Shown here: positions 6,576 to 62,842 of the stretch, one piece after another
Layout: the number at the start of each line of letters is the position of its first letter
Position numbering within the stretch: the first letter of the stretch is position 1
From: Gammaproteobacteria bacterium
GTDB taxonomy: Bacteria; Pseudomonadota; Gammaproteobacteria; Ga0077536
Direction: 5' to 3'
NCBI GenBank assembly: GCA_024235015.1
Contig: JACKNG010000001.1
Location: 450,905-514,904, forward strand
DNA: 64,000 bases
Program-made: the position numbers and the translations under genes
The notes under the pieces: model-generated
What the model saw: the letters and a program-made list of their open reading frames with translations, nothing else
What the model was told of the DNA's origin: nothing
Database searches by the model: none

Positions 6576-7373
6576 ATGTCCCAGCCGTTCCGCATCGCCG
6601 TCATCCTGCTCGCCCTCCTCGGCGCGCTGCCCGCGGCCGCCCAGCAGTCCGCCGTGGACGTGTGGGAGACCCTGCTGCGGCCGCACCATTTCCCGGACAC
6701 CGAGATCATCGAGGACAGCACGGTCATCGAGTTGAGCACGCCCTACCGCTCCGAGGATGCCGCCTTCACCCCGCTGCGCATCACGGCCAAGATCCCGCAG
6801 ACGCCGGCGCGCTACATCGAGTCCATCCACCTCTTCGTCGACCACAATCCCGAACCCGAGGTCGGCACCTTCCATTTCACGCCGGCCGCCGGCCGCGCCG
6901 ACCTCGCGCTGCGCATCCGCATCGATCGCTACACTGACGTGCGCGCCATCGCCGTGCTGAACAACGGCGAGCACCACATGGTCAAGAGCTTCGTCAAGGC
7001 GCAGGGCGGCTGCGCCATCCCGGTCGCCATCGACTACAAGCAGGCCATGGCCGGGCTCGGCAAGATCCAGTTGCACACCCTTACCGACAAGGTCGAGGAT
7101 GGCGCCGGCCTGCCGACCCAGCTGCGCATCCGCCACCCCAATTTCACCGGCATGCAGATGGACTACAAGATCTACGCCGTGCGCCCGGCGCACTACGTGA
7201 ACTCGATCCGCGTGCTGCTGAACGGCGAGGCCATCATGACCGCGGAGACCGGCATCTCGATCAGCGAGGACCCGAGCTTCCGCTTCTTCGTCAATCCCGA
7301 CGCCAAGGGCACCCTGACCGCCGAGATCACCGACACCAAGGGCAACAGCTGGGAAGAATCCCTGACCCTCTAG
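6576..7373 (+). CDS. Fused SoxY/SoxZ-like carrier (quinoprotein dehydrogenase-associated type), secreted
   Basis: Signal peptide; SoxY-like half (VDHNPEP..LRIRIDRYTDVRAIA..KAQGGC) fused to SoxZ-like half (IRHPNFTGMQMD..ISISEDPSFRF). GGAGG RBS. Confidence 0.88.
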   Translation: MSQPFRIAVILLALLGALPAAAQQSAVDVWETLLRPHHFPDTEIIEDSTVIELSTPYRSEDAAFTPLRITAKIPQTPARYIESIHLFVDHNPEPEVGTFHFTPAAGRADLALRIRIDRYTDVRAIAVLNNGEHHMVKSFVKAQGGCAIPVAIDYKQAMAGLGKIQLHTLTDKVEDGAGLPTQLRIRHPNFTGMQMDYKIYAVRPAHYVNSIRVLLNGEAIMTAETGISISEDPSFRFFVNPDAKGTLTAEITDTKGNSWEESLTL

Positions 7374-8350
7374 GCGTCGCGGCGCAGCAGCGCGGCGGCA
7401 CCCGCCAGGCAGGCCGCGGCCTCGGCCACGATACGCACGACGAGGTCGGCCGCCGGCGGACAATCGCCGACGAGGTCGGCCGCCTCGCCGACGATGACCG
7501 CGGCGCGCTCGGTATCGGCGGTGGCGACGGCCCTGGCGTAGTCGATACGTGCACTGTCGATGTCCCGTTCGAAGGCGGCCGGGTCGGCCGCGTACTCGCG
7601 CGTGACGGCGTTGGCGAGCGTGCGCAGGGCGTAACCCGGCGGCCAGTCCCAGCCGCGCAGTCGATCGAAGGCGGGGCTGCGCACGCTGTCGTCGCCGCTG
7701 GCCGCCACCGCCACGGCGCGCAGGGCGGGCGCGGCGAGCGATTCGGCACAGGCATAGAAGCGGCTGCCGAGCATGCCGCCGGCGGCGCCGAGCATCAGTG
7801 CCGCGGCCAGGCCGCGACCGTCGGCAATCCCCCCCGCCGCCACCACCGGCAACGGCGCCACGGCGTCGACCACCGCCGGCACCAGCGGCAGGGTGGCGCG
7901 CTGGCCGGCGTGCCCGCCGGCCTCGCTGCCCTGGGCGACGACGACGTCGGCACCGGCGTCGCGTGCTGCGCGCGCCTGCGCCACGCTCTGCACCTGCACG
8001 ACAAGGCGGGCGCCGGCGGCCCGGATCGCGGGGGCGAACGGCGCCGCCTCGCCAAACGACAGCAGCACGGCGCGCACCCCGTGCGCGAGGGCGAGATCGA
8101 GCACCGTCGGCCGCGCGGCGAGACGCCAGCCGATGAAACCGATGCCGACCGGTACGTCACCGGCGGCGGCGAGTTCGGCGCCGATCCATTCCGGGTCGCA
8201 ATAGCCGCCACCGATGAAGCCGAGCCCGCCGGCGCGGCTGACCGCCGTGGCGAGACGGCCGCCGGCGACGCCGGCCATGGGTGCCGACAGCAGCGGATGG
8301 ACGATGCCGAGGGTGGCGGCGAGCGGGCTGTGCAGGAGGCTGGAGGACAT
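7370..8350 (-). CDS. Nitronate monooxygenase family flavin oxidoreductase
   Basis: APMAGV, VAQGSEAGGH, VVAAGGIADGRGLAAALMLGA, LGSRF. Confidence 0.88.
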   Translation of the reverse strand: MSSSLLHSPLAATLGIVHPLLSAPMAGVAGGRLATAVSRAGGLGFIGGGYCDPEWIGAELAAAGDVPVGIGFIGWRLAARPTVLDLALAHGVRAVLLSFGEAAPFAPAIRAAGARLVVQVQSVAQARAARDAGADVVVAQGSEAGGHAGQRATLPLVPAVVDAVAPLPVVAAGGIADGRGLAAALMLGAAGGMLGSRFYACAESLAAPALRAVAVAASGDDSVRSPAFDRLRGWDWPPGYALRTLANAVTREYAADPAAFERDIDSARIDYARAVATADTERAAVIVGEAADLVGDCPPAADLVVRIVAEAAACLAGAAALLRRDA

Positions 8351-14268: not shown

Positions 14269-14425
14269 GGCCGGGTCACGCCGGCACGCCTCGAACCGGC
14301 CCGCCCACGCACGGCGTCGTCGCCACCCCGGAGGCTCCCCGCCATCACCGCGGCGGTCGCCGCCTGCCGCGCAGGCCCCGAAATCGGCCACAATGACGGC
14401 CCCAATCGTCGTCGCCGAGGTTGTC

Positions 14426-15412
14426 ATGACCGACCTGCTCGATCGCCTTCGTAATGCCGTCCCGGTATGGAGCGCCGGCATGGGCGGCGGCCTCGCCGGC
14501 CCGCAACTGGCCGCCGCGGTGAGCGAGGCCGGCGGCTTCGGCGTCCTCGGCGTCGGCGGTGGCCTGCCGCGCGCCGCGGTACTCGAACTCGTCAGTGCGA
14601 CCCGCGCCCTGACCAGCCGCGCCTTCGGCGCCAATGTCATCCTGCCGATGTCGGACGGCGAAGACATCGCGGCCTGCTTCGACGCCCGCGTCGACGTGCT
14701 CGTGCTGTTCTGGGGCGACCCCCAGCCCTACGTCGCCGACGCCCACCGTCGCGGCATGTTCGTCGTCGCCCAGTGCGGCGGCCCCGAGGATGCCGTGGCG
14801 GCGGCCGATGCCGGGGTCGACGCGGTGATGGTCCAGGGCACCGAGGCCGGTGGGCACGTCAAGGCGCTCGCGCCCCTCGCCGAGACGGTGCCGGCGGCCG
14901 TGCGCGCCCTCGGTCGCCGCGTGCCGGTCATCGCCGCCGGCGGCCTGGCCACCGGCGCCGACGTCGCCACGGCGCTCGGCTACGGCGCCCGCGCGGCATC
15001 GCTCGGCACCCGCTTCCTGGCCAGCACCGAGGCTGCCGCGGTCGACGCCTACAAGGCCCGCGTGGTCGCTGCCCGCGCCGCCGACACCGTGTTCACCGAC
15101 TTGTTCGACATCGGCTGGCCGCGGGCCAATCACCGCGTGCTGCGCAACACCACCTACACCGCCTGGGAGGCAGCCGGTCGCCCCGCCCCGGGGGCGCGCC
15201 CGGGCGAGGGCGAGGAAATCGGTACAATCCCCGCCGGCGCCGAGCGCGTGCCCCTGCCGCGCTACGCCGTCATGCCGCCGATGAGCGGATTCGAGGGTGA
15301 CCTCGAGGCCGCCGCCCTGTACGCCGGCGAATCGGTCGAGCGCATCGACGCCGTGGTGCCAGCGGCCGAGCTCGTCACGCGCCTGCTGGACGAACTGCGG
15401 GCGGCGTCGTGA
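14426..15412 (+). CDS. Nitronate monooxygenase family flavin oxidoreductase
   Basis: VQGTEAGGH, VIAAGGLATG, LGTRFLASTEA. GAGG RBS before ATG 14426. Confidence 0.88.
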   Translation: MTDLLDRLRNAVPVWSAGMGGGLAGPQLAAAVSEAGGFGVLGVGGGLPRAAVLELVSATRALTSRAFGANVILPMSDGEDIAACFDARVDVLVLFWGDPQPYVADAHRRGMFVVAQCGGPEDAVAAADAGVDAVMVQGTEAGGHVKALAPLAETVPAAVRALGRRVPVIAAGGLATGADVATALGYGARAASLGTRFLASTEAAAVDAYKARVVAARAADTVFTDLFDIGWPRANHRVLRNTTYTAWEAAGRPAPGARPGEGEEIGTIPAGAERVPLPRYAVMPPMSGFEGDLEAAALYAGESVERIDAVVPAAELVTRLLDELRAAS

Positions 15413-49306: not shown

Positions 49307-49696
49307 ATGAGCGATGGAGACGGCCTGGACCCGATGCGCCTGTGGCGCGAATGGTTCGTGAAATCCGAGAAAGCCTGGAGCGATGCCCTGACCGACCTGA
49401 TGGGCGACGAACGCTTCTCCAACGGCATGGGACGCTACGTGCACGAAGCGCTGCACACCCATCGCATGTTCAGCGAGGCCATGGCGCAGTACCTGGCGAA
49501 CCTGAACATTCCGTCGCGGGCGGACATCCTCGACATGAGCGACCGCATGGCGCACATCGAGGACACCCTCAACCAGATCCAGGTCGAGCTGCGCGGCCAG
49601 CGCTCGCAGCTGACCAAGCTGGCGGCCAGCGCACCGGGTGCCGAGGAGCGCAAGCGCCCGGCGCGCACGCGCAAACCCGAAACCAATGACAGCTGA
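49307..49696 (+). CDS. Short PHA synthase partner subunit (PhaR class IV / short PhaE-like)
   Basis: DPMRLWREWFVKSEKAWS..DERFSNGMG..YLANLNIPSRADI..IED followed by coiled coil; directly upstream of and overlapping phaC. Confidence 0.78.
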   Translation: MSDGDGLDPMRLWREWFVKSEKAWSDALTDLMGDERFSNGMGRYVHEALHTHRMFSEAMAQYLANLNIPSRADILDMSDRMAHIEDTLNQIQVELRGQRSQLTKLAASAPGAEERKRPARTRKPETNDS

Positions 49697-50843
49697 TGAC
49701 AGCCGCTCGTTCGCGAGCGCGGGACTGATCGAGAACGCCGCCATGGAACCTGTGACCGCCGAACACCCTGCCGCGGGCGACGACGACAACTTCGACGCCC
49801 ACGTCGAACGCGTCGTCCAGCGCGCCATCCTGCGCAACATACCGGGCCTGAACCTGCCCCAGTCGCAGTCCGAGCTCGACGTCGGCCAGACGCCGAAGGA
49901 ACTCGTCTACAGCAACGAGACGGCGCGGCTGTACCACTACACGCCGATGCTCGACGAGATCTACCGCGTGCCGGTGCTGATCGTGATGTCGCCGGTCGCC
50001 AAGGGCTACATCCTCGACCTCGCCCACGGCCAGAGCCTGATCGAATACCTGCTCATGCAGGGCCACGACGTCTACATGCTCGACTGGGCCGCGCCGCACC
50101 GTGAGCAGAGCCGCCTCGGCCTCGACGAGTACGTGCTCGACCTCGTCGGCGGTTGCGTCGAAGCGGTTGCCCACGACAGTGGCGAGGACGACATCACCCT
50201 TATCGGCTACTGCATGGGCGGCATGCTGTCGCTGATGTACACCGCGCTCAACGTCGGCGGCCCGGTCAGGAACCTGGCCTGCTTCACCACCCCGGTGAAT
50301 GGCGACGGCATGGCCTTGTTCAAGAAGTGGATGACCTCGAAGTCGTTCGACATCGATCGCCTGGTCGACCAGATCGGTAACATCCCGGGCGACATGATCA
50401 ACGGTTCGATCCAGGCTCTGCGGCCGCTGCAGCGCTCGGCCAACCAGATGCGTCTGCTCAACAACGTGCAGGACGACGCCTTCGTCAAGGCCCACCTGCG
50501 CTTCGATCGCTGGGCGGTCGACCAGCTGCCCTTGCCGGGCGAGCTCGCACGCAAGATGGCCAAGGATTTCATCATCGACAACAAGCTCATCCGCGGTGGC
50601 CTGGAACTGCGCGGCAAGCCGGTCGACTTTGCTAATATCCGCGTGCCCTTCCTGCACGTCGCCGCGCTCTACGATCACATCGTGCCCGCAGAAGCGTCAC
50701 GTGACCTGATCGATCTCGTCGGCAGCGAAGACAAGAAGGAGATCGTCATGAAGGGTGGGCACGTGAGCCTGGTCGCCGGCGGCAATGCCATCTTCCGCCT
50801 GTGGCCCCAGCTCGATGCCTGGCTGGCCGCACGCGACCAGTAG
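49686..50843 (+). CDS. phaC: PHA synthase catalytic subunit, small class III/IV type
   Basis: VGQTPKE, YILDL..GQSL..YL...G.DVY..DW, lipase-box IGYCMGG (Cys), YDHIVP (Asp), GGHVSL (His); about 385 aa. Alternative start at 49743. Confidence 0.92.
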   Translation: MTADDSRSFASAGLIENAAMEPVTAEHPAAGDDDNFDAHVERVVQRAILRNIPGLNLPQSQSELDVGQTPKELVYSNETARLYHYTPMLDEIYRVPVLIVMSPVAKGYILDLAHGQSLIEYLLMQGHDVYMLDWAAPHREQSRLGLDEYVLDLVGGCVEAVAHDSGEDDITLIGYCMGGMLSLMYTALNVGGPVRNLACFTTPVNGDGMALFKKWMTSKSFDIDRLVDQIGNIPGDMINGSIQALRPLQRSANQMRLLNNVQDDAFVKAHLRFDRWAVDQLPLPGELARKMAKDFIIDNKLIRGGLELRGKPVDFANIRVPFLHVAALYDHIVPAEASRDLIDLVGSEDKKEIVMKGGHVSLVAGGNAIFRLWPQLDAWLAARDQ

Positions 50844-51481: not shown

Positions 51482-51616
51482 CCCGCCCGGCGGCCTGCTC
51501 AGAAATTTTCCGGCCACCGCGGAGGGCGCCGCCGTTGAAGCGCGCGGCGCCCGCCCCCATCTGTGTCCCCGGGCGCCACGGCGCCGGTTTCGAACCACGT
51601 TCTGCGCGGGACACAC

Positions 51617-52570
51617 ATGCAGTACAAAGACTACTACCAGGTCCTCGGCGTCGCGCGCGACGCCGACGGCGACGCCATCAAGCGCGCCTACCGCAAGCTC
51701 GCGCGCAAGTACCACCCGGACGTCAGCGAGGAGGCCGACGCCGAGGAACGCTTCAAAGAGGTCCAGGAAGCCTACGAGGTCCTCAAGGACCCGGAAAAGC
51801 GCGAAGCCTACGACCGCCTTGGCGCCAACTGGCGCGCCGGCGAGGATTTCACCCCGCCGCCCGACTGGGAGCCGGAGTTCTCGTTCCACGGCGGCGGCTT
51901 CCGCAACGCGGCCGACTTCAGCGACTTCTTCGCCTCGATCTTCGGTGGCGCACCCGGCGGCGGCGCCCGCGGCGGGCGCGGTGCTCACGGCGGCGGTTTC
52001 CAGATGCGCGGCGAAGACCGCCAGGTGCGGGTGCAGATCCGCCTCGAGGACGCCTACGCCGGGGCCACGCGCAGCTTTTCCTTCGTCAGCCCCGAGATCG
52101 ATCCGCGCGGCGAGGTCCGCCAGCAGCAGCGCAACATCAACGTGACCATCCCCAAGGGCGTCGTCGAGGGCCAGCGCATCCGTCTCGCCGGCCAGGGCGG
52201 CCCCGGCTTCGGCGGCGGCCCGGCCGGTGACCTGTTCCTCGAGGTCGAGTTCGAAGCGCACGCGATCTACCACGTCGACGGTCGCGACATCCATCTCGAC
52301 CTGCCCCTGGCACCCTGGGAGGCGGCGCTCGGCGCCAAGGTCAAAGTGCCCACCCTGGGTGGCCAGGTCGAGCTGAACATCCCGCCCAACACCCAGGCCG
52401 GGCGTAAGCTGCGTCTCGGCGGTCGCGGCCTGCCGGGCAAGGTGCCCGGCGACCAGTACGTGACCATACGCATCGTCACCCCGCCGGCGCACGACGACAG
52501 TCAGCGCGAGTTCTACCGCCGCATGGCCGAGGTCATGCCCTACGATCCGCGCGCCAACCTCAAGGCCTGA
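51617..52570 (+). CDS. cbpA: Curved DNA-binding DnaJ-class chaperone CbpA
   Basis: [15 protein letters not shown]-domain, G/F region, DnaJ C-terminal domain without zinc finger; followed by cbpM. Confidence 0.92.
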
Positions 52571-52573
52571 GCC

Positions 52574-52894
52574 ATGACCGACGATTTCACTCCCGGCGCC
52601 GGCGAACTGCTCGCCGACGATCGTCACCTCACCCTGGCCGAGTTGGTCGACGCCAGCGGCGTACGCGTCGAGCTGATCGTGGAAATGGTCAGCCACGACA
52701 TCCTGCGGCCGCACGGCCGTGGCGCCCCGGACTGGCGCTTCCCCGCGCCGGCGCTGGCGCGCGTCCGTCGCGTGGTGCGCCTGCGCCAGGATCTCGAACT
52801 GAACTGGCCCGGGGTGTGCCTGGCGCTCGAGCTACTCGACGAACTCCACGATCTGCGCCGCCGCCACCGCGCCCTCCTCCGCCGCCTCGGCTGA
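52574..52894 (+). CDS. cbpM: Chaperone modulator CbpM (MerR-like)
   Basis: RLRQDLELNWPGVCLALELLDE; 3 nt after cbpA. Confidence 0.9.
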   Translation: MTDDFTPGAGELLADDRHLTLAELVDASGVRVELIVEMVSHDILRPHGRGAPDWRFPAPALARVRRVVRLRQDLELNWPGVCLALELLDELHDLRRRHRALLRRLG

Positions 52895-53965
52895 ACGCGC
52901 CCCGGCACCGCCGTCGGCCACGATACGCAGCGATTCGCCGAATCCGAGTACGCGGAACGCGTCCGCCGGCACCCCGGCGGCGTCCAGTGCCCGCGCGAGC
53001 TCGGCATAGGGCTCGTCGATGGTCTCGAAGGTGAGCTGGAAGGTGCCGTGGTGGATGGCGATGCTCTGGCGACAGCCGAGGTCGAGATGCGCCTGCACCG
53101 CGCCCTGCGGATCGAGGTGCACCGGCAGCATGAAGTCGCGCGGGCGATAGGCCGCGATCGGCAACAGGCAGAGGTCGAAACCGCCGAAGCGCGTCCGCGC
53201 GGCGGCGAAATGCGGCCCGTAGCCCGTATCCCCGGCAAAGTACACCCGGCCCTGCGGCGCACGCAGCACGAACCCACCCCACAAGGTCTTCATCTGGTCG
53301 CCGAGCCCGCGCCCCGAGCGGTGGCGCACCTCGACGAAGCTCGCCTCGAGCGGGCCGAGCGCGGCCGTCTGCCACCAATCGAGCACACGGTAGGGCGTGA
53401 TCCCGCGCGCCTCGAACAGGGACTCGTTGCCGAGGCCGGCCAGTACCAACGGCGGCCCGTCGCGGCCGTGGGCGGCCAAGGCCTGCAGGCTGTCGAGGTC
53501 GAGATGGTCGTAGTGATCGTGGCTGACCAGTACGAGGTCGATCGGCGGCAACTCGGCCAGCGCCAGTCCGGGTGCACGAACCCGTGTCGGGCCGAGAAAG
53601 GAGAAGGGACTGGCGCGCTCGCTCCAGATGGGGTCGGTCAGCACATTCACTTCGCCCAGGGACAGCAACACCGTCGAATGGTTGACGAAGGTGACGACGA
53701 TGCCGTCCGCGCCGGGAGCCGGTCGCGGCGGGTAGTCGCCGTTGGCGACCGCTTGCGGCCAGGCCTCGCGCCGGAACGGGAAGGTGGCCAGGAAGCCCAC
53801 GATGTCACCGAGCGACTTGTCGGCCGGCAGGCGGTTGTGGAAGCGTACGCCGTCGAAGTGCGCGCTCGGCGCGCCGTCGTGGCGCGGCTGCAGGGCGCAG
53901 CCGTGCATGACCACGGCGACGGCCAGGCCGGCGGCCAGCAGCTGCCACAGGCGGCGTCTCGTCAT
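52832..53965 (-). CDS. Metallo-beta-lactamase-fold hydrolase (NAPE-PLD/RomA-like), probably exported
   Basis: LTDPIWSERASP, SHDHYDHLD, LWGGF, FAGDTGY, IHHGTF. Confidence 0.88.
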   Translation of the reverse strand: MTRRRLWQLLAAGLAVAVVMHGCALQPRHDGAPSAHFDGVRFHNRLPADKSLGDIVGFLATFPFRREAWPQAVANGDYPPRPAPGADGIVVTFVNHSTVLLSLGEVNVLTDPIWSERASPFSFLGPTRVRAPGLALAELPPIDLVLVSHDHYDHLDLDSLQALAAHGRDGPPLVLAGLGNESLFEARGITPYRVLDWWQTAALGPLEASFVEVRHRSGRGLGDQMKTLWGGFVLRAPQGRVYFAGDTGYGPHFAAARTRFGGFDLCLLPIAAYRPRDFMLPVHLDPQGAVQAHLDLGCRQSIAIHHGTFQLTFETIDEPYAELARALDAAGVPADAFRVLGFGESLRIVADGGAGARSAEAAEEGAVAAAQIVEFVE

Positions 53966-54063
53966 CTTGCGTCGTCCTCCGGGGGGCCGCGGCGGCGCAG
54001 GATGCGCGGCGCCAGCCTGCCGCTATACTAGCCCGCCTTGTCGCAGTTCACGGGGAGGTGAAC

Positions 54064-54807
54064 ATGGCCCGCAAACGCAGCCCGGCGCTCAGCGCGCGCA
54101 GCTACAGCATGCCGGAATTGTCCGAACTCTACGGCGAGCCGCCGTTCCACTACCGCGAGGTGACCCAGCTGCTGGTCGCCTTCGAAACCGACCCCAAGGT
54201 GCTGCGAGCGCTGGTCCCGGCGCCGCTGGTCCCGAACAAGGAAGCGACGATGTTCGTCTCCATCGCCGACTTCCTGTGCTCGGGTTTCGGCCGCTACTAC
54301 GAGATGCACCTGTTCACCCACGCCACCTACAAGCGCCGGCTGGTCAACTTCAGCCTCTACCTGGTGCTCGATAACGACGTCGCCATCTGCGGCGGGCGCG
54401 AAATCTGGGGCTTCCCCAAGAAGCTCGGCCGGCTCGAGATGGACATGACCGACGACGTCGTGCGCGGCACGGTGGAACGCGGCGGCATCCAGCTCGTCGA
54501 CATGGCCGTGCGCATGAAGACCATGGTCGCGCCCGAGGACCTCGGCGGCACCGTCGACTGGGTGGCGCGCAAGTTCATTCCCAGCGTCTCCCTGAAAAGC
54601 CCGCCGGACGTCGACCAGCTCACCCTCACCACGCTGACCAACGTGGTGGTCGACGAGGTCCACGCTGGCCCGGCCACGCTCAGCTTCGGCGCCTCGCCCG
54701 CCGATCGTCTCGCCGACGTGCCCATCGCGCGGGTCACCGGCGGCTGGTTCTTCCAGAGCGAGATGACGCTCGAGGACGGCCAGGTCCTGCACGACTACCT
54801 GGCCTGA
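54064..54807 (+). CDS. Acetoacetate decarboxylase family protein
   Basis: FGRYYE, GGREIWGFPKKL (Schiff-base Lys motif), LHDYL terminus. GGAGG RBS. Confidence 0.9.
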   Translation: MARKRSPALSARSYSMPELSELYGEPPFHYREVTQLLVAFETDPKVLRALVPAPLVPNKEATMFVSIADFLCSGFGRYYEMHLFTHATYKRRLVNFSLYLVLDNDVAICGGREIWGFPKKLGRLEMDMTDDVVRGTVERGGIQLVDMAVRMKTMVAPEDLGGTVDWVARKFIPSVSLKSPPDVDQLTLTTLTNVVVDEVHAGPATLSFGASPADRLADVPIARVTGGWFFQSEMTLEDGQVLHDYLA

Positions 54808-54818
54808 GCCGTTCGGGC

Positions 54819-55658
54819 ATGCGCGAGCGCGAGGCCGACATCGAGCGTCACTACGGCGCCGCCGACATCAGCGCGCGCATCTTGGACGCGCTGGCGCGCG
54901 CCGGGCGCGATCCCGAACGCCTCGAACGGGCCGACCTCGCGCCCTTCGACGAGTTCCACGGCGGCGGCATCGCCTCGACCCGCGACCTCGCGACCTTCGC
55001 CGGCATCACCCCGGGGCTGCGCGTGCTCGACGTCGGCAGCGGCATCGGCGGCCCGGCGCGCACGCTGGCGGCCGAGTTCGGCTGCACCGTGACCGGCGTC
55101 GATCTCACCCGCGAGTTCGTCGCCGCGGCGCAGATGCTGACCGCGCGACTCGGCATGGGCGACGCCTGCCGTTTCGTGCAGGGCAGCGCCACCGCCCTGC
55201 CCTGCGCCGCGGCCAGCTTCGATCTCGCCTGGTCACAGAACATGCTGATGAACGTCGCCGACAAGGCGGCGTTCTTCGCCGAGGTCGCGCGCGTGCTGGT
55301 GCCGGGCGGGCGCTTCGCCTTCGAAGCAGTGCTGGCCGGCGATGGCCGCCCGCTGCACCTGCCGACCTTCTGGGCTTCGCGCCCCGAGTTCAATTTCCTC
55401 GTCACCCTGGACGAACTCCAGGCCCTGCTCGGCGGCGCCGGGCTCGAAGCGGTCGCACTGGAAGACACCACCGCCCAGGTCATCGCTGCCGGCCACAAGC
55501 GGCGCGCCGCGATCGCGGCGCAGGCCGAGGACCCGGCCGCGCTCAGCATCGCCGTCATCGTGCCGCAGGACGTCGGCACCAAGATGCAGAACGCGCTGGC
55601 CAACAACGAACAGGGCCGTACGCGCACCGTGAAAGCGGTCTACCGGCGGCCGGCCTGA
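54819..55658 (+). CDS. Class I SAM-dependent methyltransferase
   Basis: DEFHGGG, VLDVGSGIGGPAR, VTGVDLT, VLVPGGRF. Confidence 0.9.
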   Translation: MREREADIERHYGAADISARILDALARAGRDPERLERADLAPFDEFHGGGIASTRDLATFAGITPGLRVLDVGSGIGGPARTLAAEFGCTVTGVDLTREFVAAAQMLTARLGMGDACRFVQGSATALPCAAASFDLAWSQNMLMNVADKAAFFAEVARVLVPGGRFAFEAVLAGDGRPLHLPTFWASRPEFNFLVTLDELQALLGGAGLEAVALEDTTAQVIAAGHKRRAAIAAQAEDPAALSIAVIVPQDVGTKMQNALANNEQGRTRTVKAVYRRPA

Positions 55659-55723
55659 ATGCAAGGCCCGGCCACGGTCCGGGCACCGACCACCCAACCA
55701 TCGATCAAAGGGGGAGCTTACCC

Positions 55724-56479
55724 ATGGACCTCGGACTCAAAGGCAAGAACGTCGTCGTCACCGGCGGCAGCCGCGGCATCGGCCGCGCCACCGCGCTGGC
55801 CTTCGCCGCCGAAGGCGCCAACGTCGCCATCTGCGCACGCAGCCAGGACGCGCTCGACGCCACCCGCGCGGCAATCGAAGCGGCCGGGGTCAAGGCGCAT
55901 GCCGCGAGCTGTGACGTCGGCGACGCCGCGGCGCTGGCCGCGTTTCTCGATGGCGCCCGGGCGGCACTCGGCTCGGTCGACGTCCTCGTCAACAACCCGT
56001 CCGGCTTCGGCATGACCGACGACGAGGCCGGCTGGAAAGCCGCCGTCGACGTCGACCTCATGGCCACCGTGCGCGCCACCCAACAGGTGGTGCCGTGGAT
56101 GGAAGCGGCCGGCGGCGGCGCCATCGTGCACATCTCGTCTGCCTCCGGCCTCGAGGCCGGCTGGCCCGCGCCCTACGCGGCGATGAAGGCCGCCCTGTTC
56201 AACCACGCCAAGACCATGGCCGCCGAGCTGATGCCCAAGGGCATCCGCGTCAACTGCATCGCGCCCGGTTCGATCTTCTTCGAAGGAGGGGTGTGGGACC
56301 AGGTCCAGCAGAACATGCCCGACTACTACAACGCGACCCTGGCACAGTGCCCGGCCGGGCGCATGGGCACCCCCGAGGAAGTCGCCACCGCGGTGGTCTT
56401 CGTCGCCTCGCCGCGCGCGAGCTGGGTGTCCGGCGTCACGCTGCTGGTCGACGGCGTGCAGCACAAGGGCATCTACTGA
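55724..56479 (+). CDS. Short-chain dehydrogenase/reductase
   Basis: TGGSRGIG, LVNN, YAAMK (YxxxK), NCIAPG. Confidence 0.92.
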   Translation: MDLGLKGKNVVVTGGSRGIGRATALAFAAEGANVAICARSQDALDATRAAIEAAGVKAHAASCDVGDAAALAAFLDGARAALGSVDVLVNNPSGFGMTDDEAGWKAAVDVDLMATVRATQQVVPWMEAAGGGAIVHISSASGLEAGWPAPYAAMKAALFNHAKTMAAELMPKGIRVNCIAPGSIFFEGGVWDQVQQNMPDYYNATLAQCPAGRMGTPEEVATAVVFVASPRASWVSGVTLLVDGVQHKGIY

Positions 56480-56511
56480 TCGCGCCCGGCAAGCACAGGG
56501 AGAACCAAGGC

Positions 56512-57564
56512 ATGTACGACAACCCCTACTACTCGCAGGAACTGCACGGCCCTTACGAGATCTTCGAGGCCGGCGCGTTCGAACTCGAGGACGGCGGCCG
56601 CCTGCCCGACCTCAAGCTCGCCTACGCCGTGCACGGCAAGCCGAACGCGAACAAGGACAACGTCGTCCTCTTCCCGACCTGGTATTCCGGCACCAACAAG
56701 CTGCTCGAGCAGGTCTACATCGGCCCCGGCCGCGCGCTCGACCCGGCGAAGTATTGCATCGTGTGCGTGAACCAGATCGGCAGCGGCCTGTCGAGTTCGC
56801 CGCACAACACGCCGGCGCCGTGGAACATGGCGAAATTCCCGCGCGTGCGCATCAGTGACGACGTCCGTGCCCAGCACAAGCTGCTCACCGAGCACCTCGG
56901 CCTACACGAACTCGCGCTGGTGGTCGGCGGCTCGATGGGCGCGCAGCAGACCTACGAATGGGCGGTGCGCTATCCCGACATGGTCAAGCGCGCCGCGCCC
57001 ATCGCGGGCTATGCCAAGAACACCGACCACGACTTCCTCTACACCGACACCCTCAGCGAGGCCATCACCTCGGACCCGGGCTGGAACGGCGGCTGGTACG
57101 CGAGCAATGCCGCGGTTCACCAGGGCCTGCGCCGCCAGGCCAAGCTGTGGTCGGTAATGGGCCTGTGCCCCGAGTTCTTCGCCCAGGAAGGCTGGCGCGC
57201 CCTCGGCTGCACCTCGCTCGAAGACTTCCAGGTCGGTTTCATGGAAGGGCTGTTCACCCAGATGGATCCCAACGACCTGCTGTGCATGGCCTGGAAATGG
57301 CAGCGCGGCGACGTCAGCCGCCTCACCGGCGGTGACCTCAAGGCCGCGCTCAAGCGCATCAAGGCCAAGGTCTTCGTCCTGCCCATCGACACTGACATGT
57401 TCTTCAAGGTGCCCGACTGCAAGAAGGAGCAGAAACTCATCAAGGGCTCGGAGCTGCGTGTCATCAAGAGCGTGGCCGGTCATTTCGGCCTGTTCGGCCT
57501 GGAGCCCGAGTACCACGCCCAGGTCGACCAGCACCTCAACGACCTGCTCGCCATCGACGTCTGA
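56512..57564 (+). CDS. Homoserine-acetyltransferase-like esterase, MekB-like
   Basis: PTWYSGT, RALDPAKY, GGSMGAQQTYEWAVRYPD, KWQRGDVS, GHFGLFG; resembles Pseudomonas veronii MekB as recalled. Confidence 0.85.
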   Translation: MYDNPYYSQELHGPYEIFEAGAFELEDGGRLPDLKLAYAVHGKPNANKDNVVLFPTWYSGTNKLLEQVYIGPGRALDPAKYCIVCVNQIGSGLSSSPHNTPAPWNMAKFPRVRISDDVRAQHKLLTEHLGLHELALVVGGSMGAQQTYEWAVRYPDMVKRAAPIAGYAKNTDHDFLYTDTLSEAITSDPGWNGGWYASNAAVHQGLRRQAKLWSVMGLCPEFFAQEGWRALGCTSLEDFQVGFMEGLFTQMDPNDLLCMAWKWQRGDVSRLTGGDLKAALKRIKAKVFVLPIDTDMFFKVPDCKKEQKLIKGSELRVIKSVAGHFGLFGLEPEYHAQVDQHLNDLLAIDV

Positions 57565-57582
57565 ATTCAACCGGAGAAACCC

Positions 57583-58596
57583 GTGACCACCACCAACCGC
57601 GTCTGGCGCCTGCGCAAGCGCCCCGTCGGCGAACTCACCGACGACGTCCTCTCCCTCGAAGAGGAAGCCATTCCCGAGCCCGGCGAAGGCGAATGCCTGT
57701 TCCGCCTCAACTACCTCTCGCTCGACCCGACCAACCGCATCTGGATGAGCGACATGGACCAGTACATGCCGCCGGTGGAGCTCGGCGCGCCGATGCGCGG
57801 CGTGGTCTGCGGCACGGTGGTGAAGAGCCGCAACCCGGCGATCAAGGAAGGCGACATCGTCTCCGGCCTCGGCGAATGGGCGGACTACCAGATCGGCCGC
57901 GCCGGGTTCGTCAACCCGCTCGGCGACACCGGCGGCGTGCCGGTCGTCGACGCCTTCGGCACCTTCGCCGTGGTCGGGCCGACCGCCTACTTCGGCCTCG
58001 TCGACCTCGGCGAGCCCAAGGCCGGCGAGACCGTGGTGGTCTCGGCAGCGGCTGGCGCGGTCGGTTCCATCGTCGGCCAGATCGCCAAGATCAAGGGCTG
58101 CCGCGCCGTCGGCCTCGCCGGCTCGGACGACAAGTGCCGTTGGATCACCGAGGAGCTCGGCTTCGACGCCGCCATCAACTACAAGACCGAGGACGTGCCG
58201 GCCGCACTGAAGCGCGCCTGCCCGGACGGCATCGACATCTACTTCGACAACGTCGGCGGCGACATCCTCGACGCCTGTCTCAAGCAGATGAACTTCAAGG
58301 GCCGCGTCCCGACCTGCGGACTGATCTCGCAGTACAACGCGACCGGCGCGGTACCGGGGCCGAAGAACTACGACATGATCCTCATGCAGCGGCTCAAGGT
58401 GCAGGGTTTCATCGTGCTCGACTACGCCGATCGCTATCCCGAGGCCATCGGCGCGCTGGCCGGCTGGATGGCCGAGGGCAAGCTGAAGGTACGCCAGGAC
58501 GTGGTCGACGGCCTGGAGAACGCCTTGCAGACCCTGAAGAAGCTCTACACCGGGGCCAACACCGGCAAGCTCATGATTCGCGTCGAGGACGTCTGA
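57583..58596 (+). CDS. NADP-dependent alkenal/one double-bond reductase (PTGR/CurA-like MDR)
   Basis: YLSLDP, TAYFGL, VSAAAGAVGSIVGQIAKIKG, YFDNVGG, CGLISQYN, NTGKL. Confidence 0.92.
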   Translation: MTTTNRVWRLRKRPVGELTDDVLSLEEEAIPEPGEGECLFRLNYLSLDPTNRIWMSDMDQYMPPVELGAPMRGVVCGTVVKSRNPAIKEGDIVSGLGEWADYQIGRAGFVNPLGDTGGVPVVDAFGTFAVVGPTAYFGLVDLGEPKAGETVVVSAAAGAVGSIVGQIAKIKGCRAVGLAGSDDKCRWITEELGFDAAINYKTEDVPAALKRACPDGIDIYFDNVGGDILDACLKQMNFKGRVPTCGLISQYNATGAVPGPKNYDMILMQRLKVQGFIVLDYADRYPEAIGALAGWMAEGKLKVRQDVVDGLENALQTLKKLYTGANTGKLMIRVEDV

Positions 58597-58622
58597 AGGC
58601 GTCCAACCGAGGGGAGAACACC

Positions 58623-60479
58623 ATGCTGAAAACCACTCACCGCGCGCTCCTGCTGGGCGCGCTGGGCGCCCTGCTGCTGCACTTGCAGGGCGTCGCCGCC
58701 GACGATCGCGCCATCGGCGCGGAAGCCTTCGACCGCGCCTGCTCGGGTTGCCACGGCGACCCGCCGGTGCCGCGCGCGCTGACCCGCGCCCAGCTCGCCG
58801 CGCTGCCGCCGGAGAAGATCTTCCAGGCCCAGTTGTCGGGGCTGATGGCGCTGCAGGCCGCGGCGCTGACCGAGATCGAGAAGAAGGCCGTGGCCATCTA
58901 CCTGTCCGACACCGAGTGGGGCACGGTGAAGATGGAGAAAGCGGCCGAGAAGCTCGCCATGTGCACCGGGTCGAGCGCGGTCACGGCGGCGGACTTCGAA
59001 CGGCCCAAGTGGATCGGCTGGGGCCTGGACCTCGACAACAGCCGCTTCCAGCCGGGTGACCAGGCCGGGCTGACCGCCGCCGACCTCGCCAATCTCGAGC
59101 TCAAGTGGGTACACGGCTACGCCGGCGCCACCACCGTCACCACCCAGCCGGCCGTGGTCGGCGACCACATTTTCATCGGCTCGCCCAACGGCGCCATCTA
59201 CAACCTCGATCGCAAGACCGGCTGCGCCTACTGGAAGTACGACACCGCGGCCGAGGTGCGCGCCGCCATCGTCGTCGCCCCGCGTGCCGACGGTACCATC
59301 GGGCTCTACGCCGGCGACCGCAAGGCCAACTTCTACGCGCTCGACGCCAACAGCGGCAAGCTGTTGTGGCAGGACCGCGTCGAACCGCACCCGTGGTCGA
59401 TGATCACCTCCTCGCCCGTGCTCTACGAGGGCAAGCTCTACTTCGGCACGGCCTCGTTCGAGGAACTCGCCGGCGGCTCGAAGAAGTACGAGTGCTGCAC
59501 CTTCCGCGGCAGCGTGCTGGCCTACGACGCCGAGAGCGGCAAGAAGCTGTGGCAGAGCTACGTCATTCCCGGCGAACCGCAGAAGACCAAGGTGACCACC
59601 GAGGGCGTGCAGTTGTGGGGACCGTCAGGCGCGGCGGTGTGGTCGAGCCCGACGCTCGATCCGGCCCACAACACGCTCTACGTGACGACGGGGGACTCCT
59701 ACTCCGCGCCGGCCGCCGACACCTCCGACGCCATCGTCGCCATGGACATGACCACCGGCGCCATCAAGTGGTTCAAACAGATGACGGCGGACGATGCGTT
59801 CACCGCGGCCTGCGTCGCGCCCAACGCCGACCCGGTGTCCAAGGAGGGCTGCGGGCCGGACGTCGACTTCGGCGCCTCGGCCATCCTGCGCACCCTGCCG
59901 AACGGCAAGCGCCTGCTGCTGGCCGGTCAGAAGTCGGGCGTCATGCACGCCGTCGACCCGGACGCGGACGGCGCCATCGTGTGGCAGAAGCGGCTCTCGC
60001 CGGGTGGCGTGCTGGGCGGCATCGAGTGGGGCTTCGCCGCCGATGACACCCACCTCTACGTGCCCATCTCGGACGTGTGGGAGACCAAGCACGCGCCGGG
60101 CGCGGCGGGCGGCATCTATGCGCTGAACTTCGCCGACGGCAGCGAGCTGTGGAACACCCCGGCGGCCAAGCCCGACTGCAACGACATCCCCGGCTGCAAT
60201 GCCGGCCAGCCGGCAGCGGCCACGCTCATCCCGGGCGTGGTGTTCTCGGGCTCCATGGACGGCCACATGCGCGCCTACGACCCGGCCAGCGGCAAGGTCA
60301 TCTGGGATGTCGACACCAAGGGCGAACACGCCACCGTCAACGGCGTCCCTGCCCACGGCGGCTCGATCAAGGGCGCCGGCGTGACCGTGGTGAACGGCTG
60401 GGTCTACTTCGGCTCCGGCTACGGTCTCTTCGGCATGCCCGGCAACATGTTCATGGCGTTCGGGCCGAAAGGGGACTAG
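58623..60479 (+). CDS. PQQ-dependent quinohemoprotein dehydrogenase, polyvinyl-alcohol dehydrogenase family
   Basis: Signal peptide, CSGCH heme c motif, PQQ beta-propeller repeats, ECCTFRGS, SGAAVWSSP, DVDFG, GGIEWG, SGYG. Confidence 0.88.
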   Translation: MLKTTHRALLLGALGALLLHLQGVAADDRAIGAEAFDRACSGCHGDPPVPRALTRAQLAALPPEKIFQAQLSGLMALQAAALTEIEKKAVAIYLSDTEWGTVKMEKAAEKLAMCTGSSAVTAADFERPKWIGWGLDLDNSRFQPGDQAGLTAADLANLELKWVHGYAGATTVTTQPAVVGDHIFIGSPNGAIYNLDRKTGCAYWKYDTAAEVRAAIVVAPRADGTIGLYAGDRKANFYALDANSGKLLWQDRVEPHPWSMITSSPVLYEGKLYFGTASFEELAGGSKKYECCTFRGSVLAYDAESGKKLWQSYVIPGEPQKTKVTTEGVQLWGPSGAAVWSSPTLDPAHNTLYVTTGDSYSAPAADTSDAIVAMDMTTGAIKWFKQMTADDAFTAACVAPNADPVSKEGCGPDVDFGASAILRTLPNGKRLLLAGQKSGVMHAVDPDADGAIVWQKRLSPGGVLGGIEWGFAADDTHLYVPISDVWETKHAPGAAGGIYALNFADGSELWNTPAAKPDCNDIPGCNAGQPAAATLIPGVVFSGSMDGHMRAYDPASGKVIWDVDTKGEHATVNGVPAHGGSIKGAGVTVVNGWVYFGSGYGLFGMPGNMFMAFGPKGD

Positions 60480-60627
60480 TCCCCGCATCCAGCGCCGGTC
60501 CGTCGCGGTCCGCCCCGGGCCGCGGCGGCCGGTCGCCTCCCCTGACGGGCGACGGGCCGGGCGCAGTTCGGCACAGCGGGGCGACGGTACGCTGCATCGC
60601 GGCCGGCAACTCATTACCATCGCGTCC

Positions 60628-62059: not shown

Positions 62060-62842
62060 TCAGATCATCGTCCGCCCACCATCCACGGCCCACGACTGGC
62101 CGTTGACGTAGCTCGCCTCGTCGCAGGCGAGGTAGACGACCAGGCTGGCCACTTCCTCGGGCCGGATGAAGCGCTTGAGCGGCACCGAGTTGACGAAGTT
62201 CCGCGTCGTCGTTTCGACATCCAGTCCGGCCACCCGCGCATGCTCGGTGATGAAACTGGTCGCCATGTCGGTATCGACCACCCATGGGCACACCGCGTTG
62301 ACGCGCACGCCCTGGGCGGCGAGTTCCAGCGCGAGGCAGCGGGTGAGACCGATGACGGCGTGCTTGGAGACGTTGTAGGCCGCCTGGTTGGGGGTGCCCC
62401 ACTTGCCGGCGGTCGAGGCCAGGTTGACGATGCTGCCGGCGCCGCGCGCGACCATGCCGGGCAGCACGAGCTGGGTGACGTGCAGCACGCCGATGAAATT
62501 GACCTCGAAGAGATCGCGGAAGTCCTGCGCGTCGTAATCGAGAAAGGCCGCCGCGCGATGGATACCGGCGTTGTTGACCAGCACGTCGATACCCCCGGCC
62601 GCCTCGGCCTGTTCGACCATCGCCGCCATCGCCGCGCGATCGGTGACGTCGCCGGCATGGACCGCCACGGCGACCCCGAAACGTCGCCGCAGGTCTGCGG
62701 CGACCGCCTCGAGGCGCGTCGCGTCGCGCGCATTCAACACCAGGCCCGCACCTTCCGCTGCGCAGGCCTCCGCCACCGCCAGGCCGATGCCGCGGCTGCC
62801 GCCGGTGATGAGCGCGGTGCGCCCGGCCAGTCGTCCACTCAT
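62060..62842 (-). CDS. Short-chain dehydrogenase/reductase
   Basis: TGGSRGIG, LVNNAG, YNVSK (YxxxK), NAVCPW..DT. Confidence 0.93.
   Translation of the reverse strand: MSGRLAGRTALITGGSRGIGLAVAEACAAEGAGLVLNARDATRLEAVAADLRRRFGVAVAVHAGDVTDRAAMAAMVEQAEAAGGIDVLVNNAGIHRAAAFLDYDAQDFRDLFEVNFIGVLHVTQLVLPGMVARGAGSIVNLASTAGKWGTPNQAAYNVSKHAVIGLTRCLALELAAQGVRVNAVCPWVVDTDMATSFITEHARVAGLDVETTTRNFVNSVPLKRFIRPEEVASLVVYLACDEASYVNGQSWAVDGGRTMI

What the first reader, a model, noticed from the sequence alone, without database searches (positions are those of the whole stretch)
54064..60479. Six-gene cluster suggesting ester, secondary alcohol and ketone catabolism
Seen: acetoacetate-decarboxylase-family enzyme (Schiff-base Lys kept), SAM methyltransferase, SDR, MekB-like esterase, NADPH enone reductase and a periplasmic PQQ/heme c dehydrogenase of the PVA-dehydrogenase type, all on the plus strand with gaps of 11-65 nt. 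Known: PVA-DH oxidises secondary alcohols and 1,3-diols, MekB hydrolyses acetate esters, ADC decarboxylates beta-keto acids, and PTGR-type enzymes reduce enones. Inference: a coherent but undescribed route for acetylated polyols or polyketide-like compounds (deacetylate, oxidise, reduce enone, decarboxylate). It could also be a loose assembly.
Basis: partly seen in the sequence, partly recalled or inferred. Interest (0 to 1): 0.58.

Follow-up and report, generated by a model that had tools for sequence, protein, structure and literature searches.

The report
Lineage-specific ester/keto-acid/alcohol enzyme operon
Six closely packed enzyme genes in an uncultured gammaproteobacterium probably form one operon for breaking down small esters, keto acids, ketones or alcohols, but it is one trimmed version of a variable gene neighbourhood in its bacterial family, and nothing ties it to polyvinyl alcohol or acetylated polyols.

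Summary
Six intact + strand genes lie at 54064-60479 with gaps of 11, 65, 32, 18 and 26 nt. They encode an acetoacetate-decarboxylase-family protein (ADC), a class I SAM methyltransferase (MT), an SDR, a MekB-type esterase (EST), a CurA/PTGR-type ene-reductase (ER) and an N-terminal haem c PQQ dehydrogenase. An invariant -10-like element sits just upstream of the first gene.

- The full set occurs only in the host's own genus, and even there single genes (SDR or ER) are missing in two of five sister genomes.
- Other genera of this uncultured gammaproteobacterial family keep sub-modules: ADC-MT, and SDR-EST-ene-reductase/nitroreductase. They often place acyl-CoA synthetase, thiolase and acyl-CoA dehydrogenase genes before the PQQ gene.
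- In several genera the genes are scattered.
- The PQQ protein is 36% identical to the genuine PVA dehydrogenase of Sphingopyxis 113P3. The genome has no homologue of oxidised-PVA hydrolase.
- The ADC scores below NCBI's acetoacetate decarboxylase cut-off and lacks Glu61.

Best reading: a lineage-specific catabolic operon whose core mirrors the common pair of 3-hydroxybutyrate dehydrogenase and acetoacetate decarboxylase, acting on another beta-hydroxy or beta-keto acid released from an ester. The substrate is unknown. Interest is modest.

The parts
54022..54032 (+). Conserved -10-like element GCTATACTAGC, about 30 nt before the ADC start. It is the probable promoter of the operon.
   Evidence: Invariant in six genomes from two genera, although the surrounding intergenic DNA has diverged. 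It has only one other copy in the 4.66 Mb genome. No comparable AT-rich hexamer lies in the internal gaps.
54064..54807 (+). ADC-family protein (247 aa), a divergent clade of acetoacetate decarboxylase relatives.
   Evidence: PF06314 at 161.6 bits. NF002614 at 121 bits, below the 150 cut-off. 91 bits to PDB 3c8w and 82 bits to 3bgt. Lys119, Lys120 and Glu80 are invariant. Val replaces Glu61, and the Arg29 column is variable.
54819..55658 (+). Class I SAM-dependent methyltransferase (279 aa); substrate unknown.
   Evidence: Methyltransf_11 and Methyltransf_25 hits. No NCBIfam model over its cut-off. Best PDB matches are 57-67 bits and heterogeneous. Orthologues at 60% identity or more lie next to the ADC gene in 16 genomes.
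55724..56479 (+). Classical SDR (251 aa), probably NADP(H)-dependent.
   Evidence: adh_short and adh_short_C2. TGGSRGIG, YAAMK and an Arg-Ser after strand 2. No NCBIfam model over its cut-off. No PDB hit at E<=1e-40.
56512..57564 (+). MekB/Hle-type (MetX-like) alpha/beta-hydrolase esterase (350 aa).
   Evidence: NF005757 at 485 bits, above the 332 cut-off. 454 bits to PDB 5e4y and 437 bits to 5d6o over the full length. The Ser (GGSMG), Asp and His positions align.
57583..58596 (+). NADPH-dependent ene-reductase of the PTGR/CurA type (337 aa).
   Evidence: ADH_N_2 plus ADH_zinc_N. NF058644 at 376 bits, below the 440 cut-off. 352 bits to PDB 4b7c, and hits to plant and animal double-bond reductases.
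58623..60479 (+). Periplasmic quinohaemoprotein dehydrogenase (618 aa): signal peptide, N-terminal haem c (CSGCH at 40), PQQ beta-propeller.
   Evidence: Relatives at 47-76% identity are named 'polyvinyl alcohol dehydrogenase (cytochrome)' by JGI. It is 35.5% identical over 94% of its length to the PVADH next to genuine OPH in Sphingopyxis 113P3. The genome has pqqC and pqqE.
60492..60531 (+). G+C-rich hairpin after the PQQ stop codon; possible end of the transcript.
   Evidence: A 13-19 bp stem in the fold. There is no U-run, and the z-score against shuffles is not significant, so the evidence is weak.
52832..53965 (-). Divergent metallo-beta-lactamase-fold hydrolase gene. It is a conserved neighbour, not shown to be part of the unit.
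   Evidence: Lactamase_B_2 at 139 bits. It lies next to the ADC gene in genera g1, g8 and g14.
51563..52894 (+). CbpA-like DnaJ and CbpM-like MerR_2 pair, a conserved synteny anchor upstream.
   Evidence: Pfam hits. It lies upstream of the ADC gene in genera g1, g10, g18 and g8. This shows that regional synteny is inherited regardless of function.

Best explanation
The six genes are one transcription unit in this genus. It is a trimmed, lineage-specific version of a variable catabolic locus found across an uncultured gammaproteobacterial family.

The most likely chemistry handles small oxygenated aliphatic compounds:
- The MekB-type esterase frees an acid and an alcohol from a short-chain ester (inferred).
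- The SDR oxidises a beta-hydroxy acid to a beta-keto acid, or interconverts a ketone and a secondary alcohol (inferred).
- The ADC-family enzyme decarboxylates the beta-keto acid to a ketone through its Schiff-base lysine. This is inferred by analogy with the widespread pair of 3-hydroxybutyrate dehydrogenase and acetoacetate decarboxylase.
- The PTGR/CurA-type reductase saturates alpha,beta-unsaturated carbonyl intermediates (inferred).
- The periplasmic quinohaemoprotein oxidises the alcohol substrate or product and passes electrons to the respiratory chain (inferred).
- The methyltransferase has no assignable role.

Shown here: gene identities, intact catalytic motifs, tight linkage, a conserved promoter-like element, modular conservation, and PQQ biosynthesis genes. 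Not shown: co-transcription, every substrate, and the order of steps.
For: Linkage:
- Six genes on one strand with 11-65 nt gaps and ribosome-binding sites.
- An invariant -10-like element upstream of the ADC gene in six genomes.

Conservation:
- The order is kept in all five sister genomes, with single losses.
- ADC-MT, SDR-EST and EST-reductase adjacencies recur in genera g5, g8, g10, g14, g18, g4 and g7.
- In genus g7, ADC-SDR-ene-reductase-thiolase-acyl-CoA synthetase-PQQ-CoA-transferase lie on one strand.

Analogy: canonical ADC lies beside canonical 3-hydroxybutyrate dehydrogenase in 28 of 71 distant loci.

Enzymes:
- Lys-Lys and Glu76 are kept in the ADC.
- The esterase scores 454 bits to PDB 5e4y.
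- MekB hydrolyses methyl and acetate esters (PMC2975365).
- pqqC and pqqE are present.
- The genome is rich in ketone and alcohol enzymes: about 20 FMO/BVMO-like genes and 13 PQQ-propeller matches.
Against: - No substrate is indicated by any specific family model. MT, SDR, ER and ADC all score below the curated cut-offs.
- SDR, ER or MT are each missing in close relatives, so the steps are not all obligatory.
- Flanking genes of unrelated function (CbpA/CbpM, the MBL-fold hydrolase) are conserved about as well as the cluster. The synteny may therefore reflect shared descent rather than selection for linkage.
- No recurrence was found outside this family. The ADC clade is confined to it, and the four esterase homologues elsewhere in the class have none of the partners.
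- The cluster has no transporter and no dedicated regulator.
- The methyltransferase is unexplained.
Confidence: 0.45

Rival explanations
1. One reading: the operon degrades acetylated polyols, PVA or vinyl-acetate oligomers, or 1,3-diols. The steps would be deacetylation (esterase), oxidation (PVA-dehydrogenase-type enzyme), enone reduction and decarboxylation.
For: - The PQQ protein has the PVADH architecture, and it is the reciprocal best match of the Sphingopyxis 113P3 PVADH in this genome.
- JGI names its relatives PVA dehydrogenase.
- MekB-type esterases hydrolyse acetate esters.
- In Sphingopyxis the pva locus is followed by an adenylate-forming enzyme and an SDR. Acyl-CoA synthetase and SDR genes also surround the PQQ gene in this family.
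Against: - Identity to genuine PVADH is only 35.5%.
- No homologue of oxidised-PVA hydrolase in the genome at E<=1e-3. The genome is 91% complete.
- The PQQ gene is uncoupled from the esterase in most genera.
- The esterase is cytoplasmic, whereas polymers are attacked outside the cell.
- The Sphingopyxis synthetase and SDR are only 26-31% identical to this family's.
Confidence: 0.12
2. A loose assembly. The genes are neighbours by descent, perhaps read from one promoter, but they act independently as general detoxifying or housekeeping enzymes for carbonyls, enones and esters, not as one pathway.
For: - Single genes are dispensable within the genus.
- The esterase sits in many other contexts in the family, next to a thioesterase, a GST or a quinone oxidoreductase.
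- ADC and PQQ orthologues stand alone in several genera.
- A nitroreductase-family gene takes the place of the ene-reductase in other genera, which is typical of electrophile-stress enzyme sets.
- Flanking unrelated genes are equally syntenic.
Against: - Very short gaps and a single conserved promoter-like element.
- ADC-MT, SDR-EST and EST-reductase adjacencies persist across genera whose orthologues are only 57-80% identical.
- In the streamlined g7 genomes the related genes are still kept as one same-strand run.
Confidence: 0.28
3. A methyl-ester 'mask and unmask' pathway, biosynthetic or signalling. The methyltransferase O-methylates a carboxylate, the reductases and the ADC-family enzyme modify the masked intermediate, and the esterase removes the methyl group. 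The logic would be that of BioC/BioH, or of 3-hydroxy fatty acid methyl ester signals.
For: - MT and a methyl-ester-cleaving esterase type occur in one operon.
- The MT has weak matches to the carboxyl O-methyltransferases BioC and Mtf2.
- The tight ADC-MT pairing (11-26 nt) recurs in 16 genomes.
Against: - The MT matches N-, C- and O-methyltransferases equally weakly.
- MT is absent from otherwise similar clusters: G022, G071 and genera g7 and g4.
- There is no carrier protein, synthase or exporter.
- This is pure analogy.
Confidence: 0.08

Closest known systems
Pairs of 3-hydroxybutyrate dehydrogenase (TIGR01963) and acetoacetate decarboxylase (NF002614) in Proteobacteria
   Same: An SDR and an ADC-fold Schiff-base enzyme lie in one transcription unit. 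Lys115, Lys116 and Glu76 are kept. In genus g7, G022 and G071 the two genes are directly adjacent.
   Different: - Neither protein reaches the curated cut-off: ADC 121 vs 150 bits, and the SDR has no BDH-level score.
- Glu61 is replaced by Val, and the Arg29 column is not conserved.
- The ADC is about 34% identical to canonical ones.
- A canonical BDH lies elsewhere in the genome.
- Here MT separates the two genes.
mekAB methyl-ketone operon of Pseudomonas veronii MEK700 (Baeyer-Villiger monooxygenase MekA plus esterase MekB)
   Same: The esterase belongs to the same MetX-like subfamily: PRK07581 over its cut-off, 454 bits to PDB 5e4y, and the catalytic triad kept. That 5e4y is MekB and 5d6o is the Corynebacterium enzyme rests on my memory of Toelzer et al. 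2016; the database calls both 'homoserine O-acetyltransferase'.
   Different: There is no monooxygenase gene in or next to the cluster. The genome's roughly 20 FMO/BVMO-like genes are all elsewhere. No MekR-type regulator is adjacent.
pva operon of Sphingopyxis sp. 113P3 (oph, pvaA, cytC)
   Same: A quinohaemoprotein with an N-terminal haem c domain and a PQQ propeller, exported. An adenylate-forming enzyme and an SDR lie nearby in both systems.
   Different: - 35.5% identity.
- No OPH homologue.
- No separate cytochrome c gene beside it.
- The partner genes are different families or only generically similar.
CurA (YncB) and PTGR-type NADPH ene-reductases, for example P. aeruginosa PA1648 (PDB 4b7c)
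   Same: Same two-domain architecture and cofactor motif; 352 bits to 4b7c.
   Different: It scores below the CurA equivalog cut-off (376 vs 440 bits). The substrate is unknown.

Membership tests
Acetoacetate decarboxylase (EC 4.1.1.4; NCBIfam NF002614) | Score over the curated family cut-off (150 bits) | tested here: not met
   121 bits. Canonical members from other Proteobacteria score 333-358 bits.
Acetoacetate decarboxylase (EC 4.1.1.4; NCBIfam NF002614) | Schiff-base Lys115 with neighbouring Lys116, and Glu76 (C. acetobutylicum numbering, from my memory of Ho et al. 2009) | tested here: met
   FPKK at 119-120 and Glu80 are invariant across the clade and align with the canonical enzymes.
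Acetoacetate decarboxylase (EC 4.1.1.4; NCBIfam NF002614) | Glu61 and Arg29 of the active site | tested here: not met
   The Glu61 column holds Val, Leu or Ala. The Arg29 column is variable (V/I/S/A). An invariant Tyr-Arg lies two residues earlier and might substitute, but that cannot be settled from sequence alone.
ADC superfamily (Pfam PF06314) | Full-length match over the gathering score | tested here: met
   161.6 bits vs 29.8, covering profile positions 17-238 of 238.
MekB/Hle esterase subfamily of MetX-like hydrolases (NCBIfam PRK07581) | Score over the cut-off, with the Ser-Asp-His triad | tested here: met
   485 bits vs 332. GGSMG, and the Asp and His positions align with PDB 5e4y.
mekAB-type methyl-ketone operon | Baeyer-Villiger monooxygenase gene adjacent to the esterase | tested here: not met
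   None of the 20 FMO-like matches lies in window 54064-60479. The nearest is about 8 kb before the start of the window.
PVA dehydrogenase (cytochrome), EC 1.1.2.6 | Exported protein with an N-terminal haem c (CXXCH) and a PQQ beta-propeller | tested here: met
   Signal peptide, CSGCH at residue 40, propeller over residues 120-618. The Sphingopyxis PVADH has the same Pfam pattern.
PVA dehydrogenase (cytochrome), EC 1.1.2.6 | Close relationship to a characterised PVADH | tested here: inconclusive
   35.5% identity over 94% of the length, E 1e-112, and a reciprocal best hit in this genome. The family has many paralogues, 5-32 PQQ-propeller matches per genome.
pva operon | Oxidised-PVA hydrolase partner | tested here: not met
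   The Sphingopyxis OPH (632 bits to PDB 3wla) has no tblastn hit in the genome at E<=1e-3. The genome is 91% complete.
CurA (NCBIfam NF058644) | Score over the equivalog cut-off (440 bits) | tested here: not met
   375.7 bits. Membership of the wider PTGR/MDR family is met.
Operon (single transcription unit) | Same strand, short gaps, one promoter, no internal terminator | tested here: met
   Gaps of 11-65 nt. A conserved -10-like element lies only upstream of the ADC gene. No + strand terminator-like site lies between genes.
Operon (single transcription unit) | A single mRNA spanning all six genes | not testable with these tools
   This needs RT-PCR or RNA-seq.

The most novel reading that the evidence does not exclude
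The ADC-family clade confined to this uncultured family, with its tightly coupled methyltransferase, could be a new two-enzyme module. The Schiff-base enzyme and the SAM enzyme would act on the same beta-keto or alpha-keto acid. One possibility is C- or O-methylation coupled to decarboxylation or to aldol-dehydration. The esterase, SDR and ene-reductase would then finish an undescribed route to, or from, a methylated ketone or methyl ester.
Probability: 0.1. Interest if true: 0.6.

Novelty: new variant of a known kind. Interest (0 to 1): 0.3.

Why it matters
If the best reading holds, the locus marks an uncharacterised branch of short-chain ester, keto-acid and ketone catabolism. The host belongs to an environmental gammaproteobacterial family that is unusually rich in Baeyer-Villiger-type monooxygenases and quinohaemoprotein dehydrogenases. 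The locus also supplies a new clade of acetoacetate-decarboxylase relatives with an altered active site, which could be a useful decarboxylase or aldolase scaffold. It does not open a long-standing question. The main value of this check is to warn against reading 'PVA dehydrogenase' annotations as evidence of polymer degradation.

Tried and rejected
- **PVA route.** I located the genuine pva locus of Sphingopyxis 113P3. The genome has no OPH homologue, and identity to its PVADH is only 36%.
- **PF10503 as a proxy for OPH.** Discarded, because genuine OPH has no Pfam hit at E<=0.001. The PF10503 blank says nothing about OPH.
- **A canonical ketone-body pair.** Rejected: neither the ADC nor the SDR reaches the curated scores, and a canonical BDH lies elsewhere in the genome.
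- **A mekAB-like operon.** No adjacent monooxygenase.
- **Recurrence outside the family.** The ADC clade is confined to the family. Esterase homologues in four other families of the class lack the partner genes.
- **A regulon defined by the conserved upstream motif.** There are only two genomic copies, about what chance gives (0.6 expected for the 11-mer, my estimate), so no regulon can be claimed.
- **Terminator and attenuator folds.** Not better than shuffled sequence.
- **Literature searches.** Searches on the ADC-like superfamily, MekB and the PDB codes gave nothing on such a cluster.
- **Earlier findings of this scan.** Nothing on this locus or on look-alikes.


Full report
**1. What is there**

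The window has about 70% G+C. It comes from a 4.66 Mb, 13-contig genome, 91% complete, of an uncultured gammaproteobacterium. Identical or near-identical proteins are recorded only from 'MAG: Gammaproteobacteria bacterium' records.

Six + strand genes lie between 54064 and 60479, with gaps of 11, 65, 32, 18 and 26 nt. Each is preceded by a GGAG-type ribosome-binding site. The ATG at 54064 fits the ribosome-binding site better than the GTG at 54058, and it matches the MARKR start of the orthologues.

**2. Gene identities**

- **ADC-family protein (54064-54807).** PF06314 at 162 bits. It scores only 121 bits on NCBI's acetoacetate decarboxylase model, whose cut-off is 150. Its best solved relatives are the Legionella and Chromobacterium enzymes, at 91 and 82 bits.
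- **Methyltransferase (54819-55658).** A generic class I SAM enzyme. It gives weak, mixed matches to N-, O- and C-methyltransferases.
- **SDR (55724-56479).** A classical SDR with TGGSRGIG and YAAMK. It has no specific family and no close solved relative.
- **Esterase (56512-57564).** It scores 485 bits on PRK07581 (cut-off 332). It also gives 454 and 437 bits, over the full length, to PDB 5e4y and 5d6o, with the Ser, Asp and His positions kept. From memory (Toelzer et al. 2016, not verifiable here), these entries are MekB of Pseudomonas veronii and its Corynebacterium homologue. MekB is a broad-specificity esterase that cleaves methyl acetate, methyl propionate and acetate esters (PMC2975365).
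- **Ene-reductase (57583-58596).** A PTGR/CurA-type NADPH enzyme: 352 bits to PDB 4b7c, and 376 bits on the CurA model, below its 440 cut-off.
- **PQQ dehydrogenase (58623-60479).** It has a signal peptide, CSGCH at residue 40, vicinal cysteines at 291 and a PQQ propeller. The genome carries pqqC and pqqE.

**3. Is it one unit?**

- No terminator-like site lies between the genes on the + strand.
- The 95-nt region between the divergent MBL-fold hydrolase gene and the ADC gene holds an 11-nt element, GCTATACTAGC (54022-54032). It contains a TATACT -10-like hexamer. It is invariant in six genomes of two genera, although the surrounding DNA is not alignable.
- The internal gaps contain nothing comparable.
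- A G+C-rich hairpin follows the PQQ stop codon, but it is no better than shuffled sequence.

I take co-transcription from one promoter as probable. It is not shown.

**4. Conservation**

I anchored searches on the PQQ, ADC, esterase and methyltransferase proteins in 81 genomes of the family. I then fetched the flanks of the matches.

*Within the genus (g1):*
- G002 and G004 have all six genes in the same order.
- G003 has them split over two contig ends.
- G001 lacks the SDR.
- G005 lacks the ene-reductase.

*Other genera:*
- g10 has ADC-MT-EST-PQQ.
- g5 and g8 have ADC-MT-SDR-EST. A nitroreductase-family gene follows, then an acyl-CoA synthetase (with an acyl-CoA dehydrogenase in one genome) on the other strand, and only then PQQ.
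- g18 shows several variants, including ADC-SDR-EST-ER-PQQ without MT. Another variant is ADC-MT-EST-nitroreductase, with synthetase, thiolase and dehydrogenase genes before PQQ.
- The small g7 genomes carry ADC-SDR-ene-reductase-thiolase-synthetase-PQQ-CoA-transferase on one strand.
- g4 has SDR-EST-ene-reductase-nitroreductase-synthetase with no ADC, MT or PQQ orthologue.
- In g16, g3, g9, g13, g11 and g6 the ADC gene stands among unrelated genes. The esterase there lies elsewhere, next to thioesterase, GST or quinone-oxidoreductase genes. The PQQ orthologue also stands alone.

The window's genome has no orthologue of the nitroreductase, synthetase or dehydrogenase genes.

The picture is a variable locus built from three modules: A is ADC-MT, B is SDR-EST-reductase, and C is PQQ with CoA-dependent genes. 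The six-gene operon is one genus-specific, reduced arrangement of them.

Two cautions apply:
- The functionally unrelated CbpA/CbpM pair and the MBL-fold gene upstream are conserved about as well as the cluster. Much of the synteny may therefore be plain inheritance among kin.
- Outside the family I found no recurrence. ADC homologues drop from at least 44% to at most 38% identity outside it. Only 4 of 299 other genomes sampled in the class have the esterase, and none has a partner gene beside it.

**5. What the ADC-family protein is**

In other Proteobacteria, canonical ADC scores 333-358 bits on NF002614. It lies within 300 nt, on the same strand, of a canonical 3-hydroxybutyrate dehydrogenase (368-374 bits on TIGR01963) in 28 of 71 loci.

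The clade studied here is about 34% identical to those enzymes.
- It keeps the Schiff-base Lys and its neighbour, and Glu76.
- It has Val, Leu or Ala where Glu61 stands.
- It has a variable residue in the Arg29 column.
- An invariant Tyr-Arg lies two residues earlier.

MAFFT and profile-profile alignments agree on these points. Residue numbers and roles are from my memory of Ho et al. 2009.

The genome has no ADC over the cut-off, and it has one canonical BDH on another contig.

I read the ADC/SDR pair as a diverged analogue of the BDH/ADC pair, acting on a different beta-hydroxy or beta-keto acid. A non-decarboxylase Schiff-base activity, as in other ADC-superfamily members, is not excluded.

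**6. The PVA question**

- JGI labels 47-76% identical relatives 'polyvinyl alcohol dehydrogenase (cytochrome)'.
- I found the genuine pva locus on the Sphingopyxis sp. 113P3 record NZ_CP009453.1. The gene before the PQQ gene scores 632 bits to the solved oxidised-PVA hydrolase 3wla. A cytochrome c gene follows two genes after the PQQ gene.
- The window's protein is 35.5% identical to that PVADH over 94% of its length, with the same domain pattern. The two are reciprocal best hits.
- The hydrolase has no homologue in the genome.
- The family carries 5-32 PQQ-propeller matches per genome.

'PVADH-type architecture' is therefore right, but 'PVA or acetylated-polyol pathway' is unsupported.

**7. 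Most likely working**

This is inferred, not shown. A short-chain ester is hydrolysed in the cytoplasm by the MekB-type esterase. A beta-hydroxy acid, or a secondary alcohol, is oxidised by the SDR. The beta-keto acid is decarboxylated by the ADC-family enzyme. Unsaturated carbonyl intermediates are saturated by the ene-reductase. The periplasmic quinohaemoprotein oxidises an alcohol substrate or product.

The methyltransferase is unexplained. Its pairing with the ADC gene at 11-26 nt in 16 genomes is the most intriguing detail.

The genome's roughly 20 FMO/BVMO-like genes fit an organism that makes many esters from ketones, but none lies in the cluster.

Loss of single genes in close relatives argues against a rigid linear pathway. 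It fits a set of loosely cooperating, broad-specificity enzymes.

**8. Verdict**

The cluster is real and probably an operon. It is lineage-specific and modular. Its substrate is unknown. It is a new variant among ordinary catabolic operons, of modest interest.

Noticed in passing
window 54019-54036, and own genome C7:313990-314007: A 16-nt string, CGCTATACTAGCCCGC, occurs upstream of the ADC gene. It occurs once more in the genome, about 45 nt before a small secreted-protein gene (MSKSLVVALLL...). With two copies it could be a shared promoter or operator, or it could be chance.
   Followed up: partly
own genome, e.g. C1:65342-68964; C2, C3, C4, C6 and C7: About 20 FMO/Baeyer-Villiger-type monooxygenase matches in a 4.66 Mb genome. 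One pair flanks a 41% paralogue of the cluster's ene-reductase at C1:66132-67151. This suggests heavy investment in ketone-to-ester chemistry.
   Followed up: partly
own genome C4:535761-538071: A second ADC-family paralogue (170 bits on PF06314) lies directly after an acyl-CoA-synthetase-like gene. This echoes the ADC/synthetase linkage seen in relatives.
   Followed up: no
L113 (G019:C3:2740000-2759900), 6858-7919 and 13776-14891: A tandem duplication, about 7 kb apart, of the ADC gene, each copy with a roughly 117-residue fragment of the methyltransferase. The full-length MT of that genome sits beside SDR, nitroreductase, synthetase and PQQ on another contig (L021).
   Followed up: no
L169 (NZ_CP009453.1:146065-150915): The genuine oph-pvaA locus of Sphingopyxis sp. 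113P3 lies on the 243 kb record held as a plasmid. The genome announcement (PMC4611681) states that the pva sequence was found on the chromosome. RefSeq also calls the OPH gene 'hypothetical protein', and an MFS transporter gene separates pvaA from cytC.
   Followed up: partly
L040-L110 (distant ADC loci): Canonical acetoacetate decarboxylase genes sit beside canonical 3-hydroxybutyrate dehydrogenase genes in 28 of 71 loci across Alpha-, Beta- and Gammaproteobacteria. Many loci also carry a second, tandem ADC paralogue.
   Followed up: partly
window 49307-50843 and 62060-62842: A class III-type PhaC (309 bits on TIGR01836, below its cut-off) with a weak phasin-like ORF lies about 3 kb upstream. 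A second SDR, resembling 3-hydroxybutyrate dehydrogenase (220 bits, below its cut-off), lies downstream on the minus strand. So the cluster lies in a region with polyhydroxyalkanoate-related genes.
   Followed up: partly
window 57583-58596 vs L020, L017, L029, L030: The ene-reductase is 85-88% identical between genomes and genera whose neighbouring ADC, SDR, esterase and PQQ proteins are only 57-84% identical. It either evolves unusually slowly or has been exchanged.
   Followed up: no
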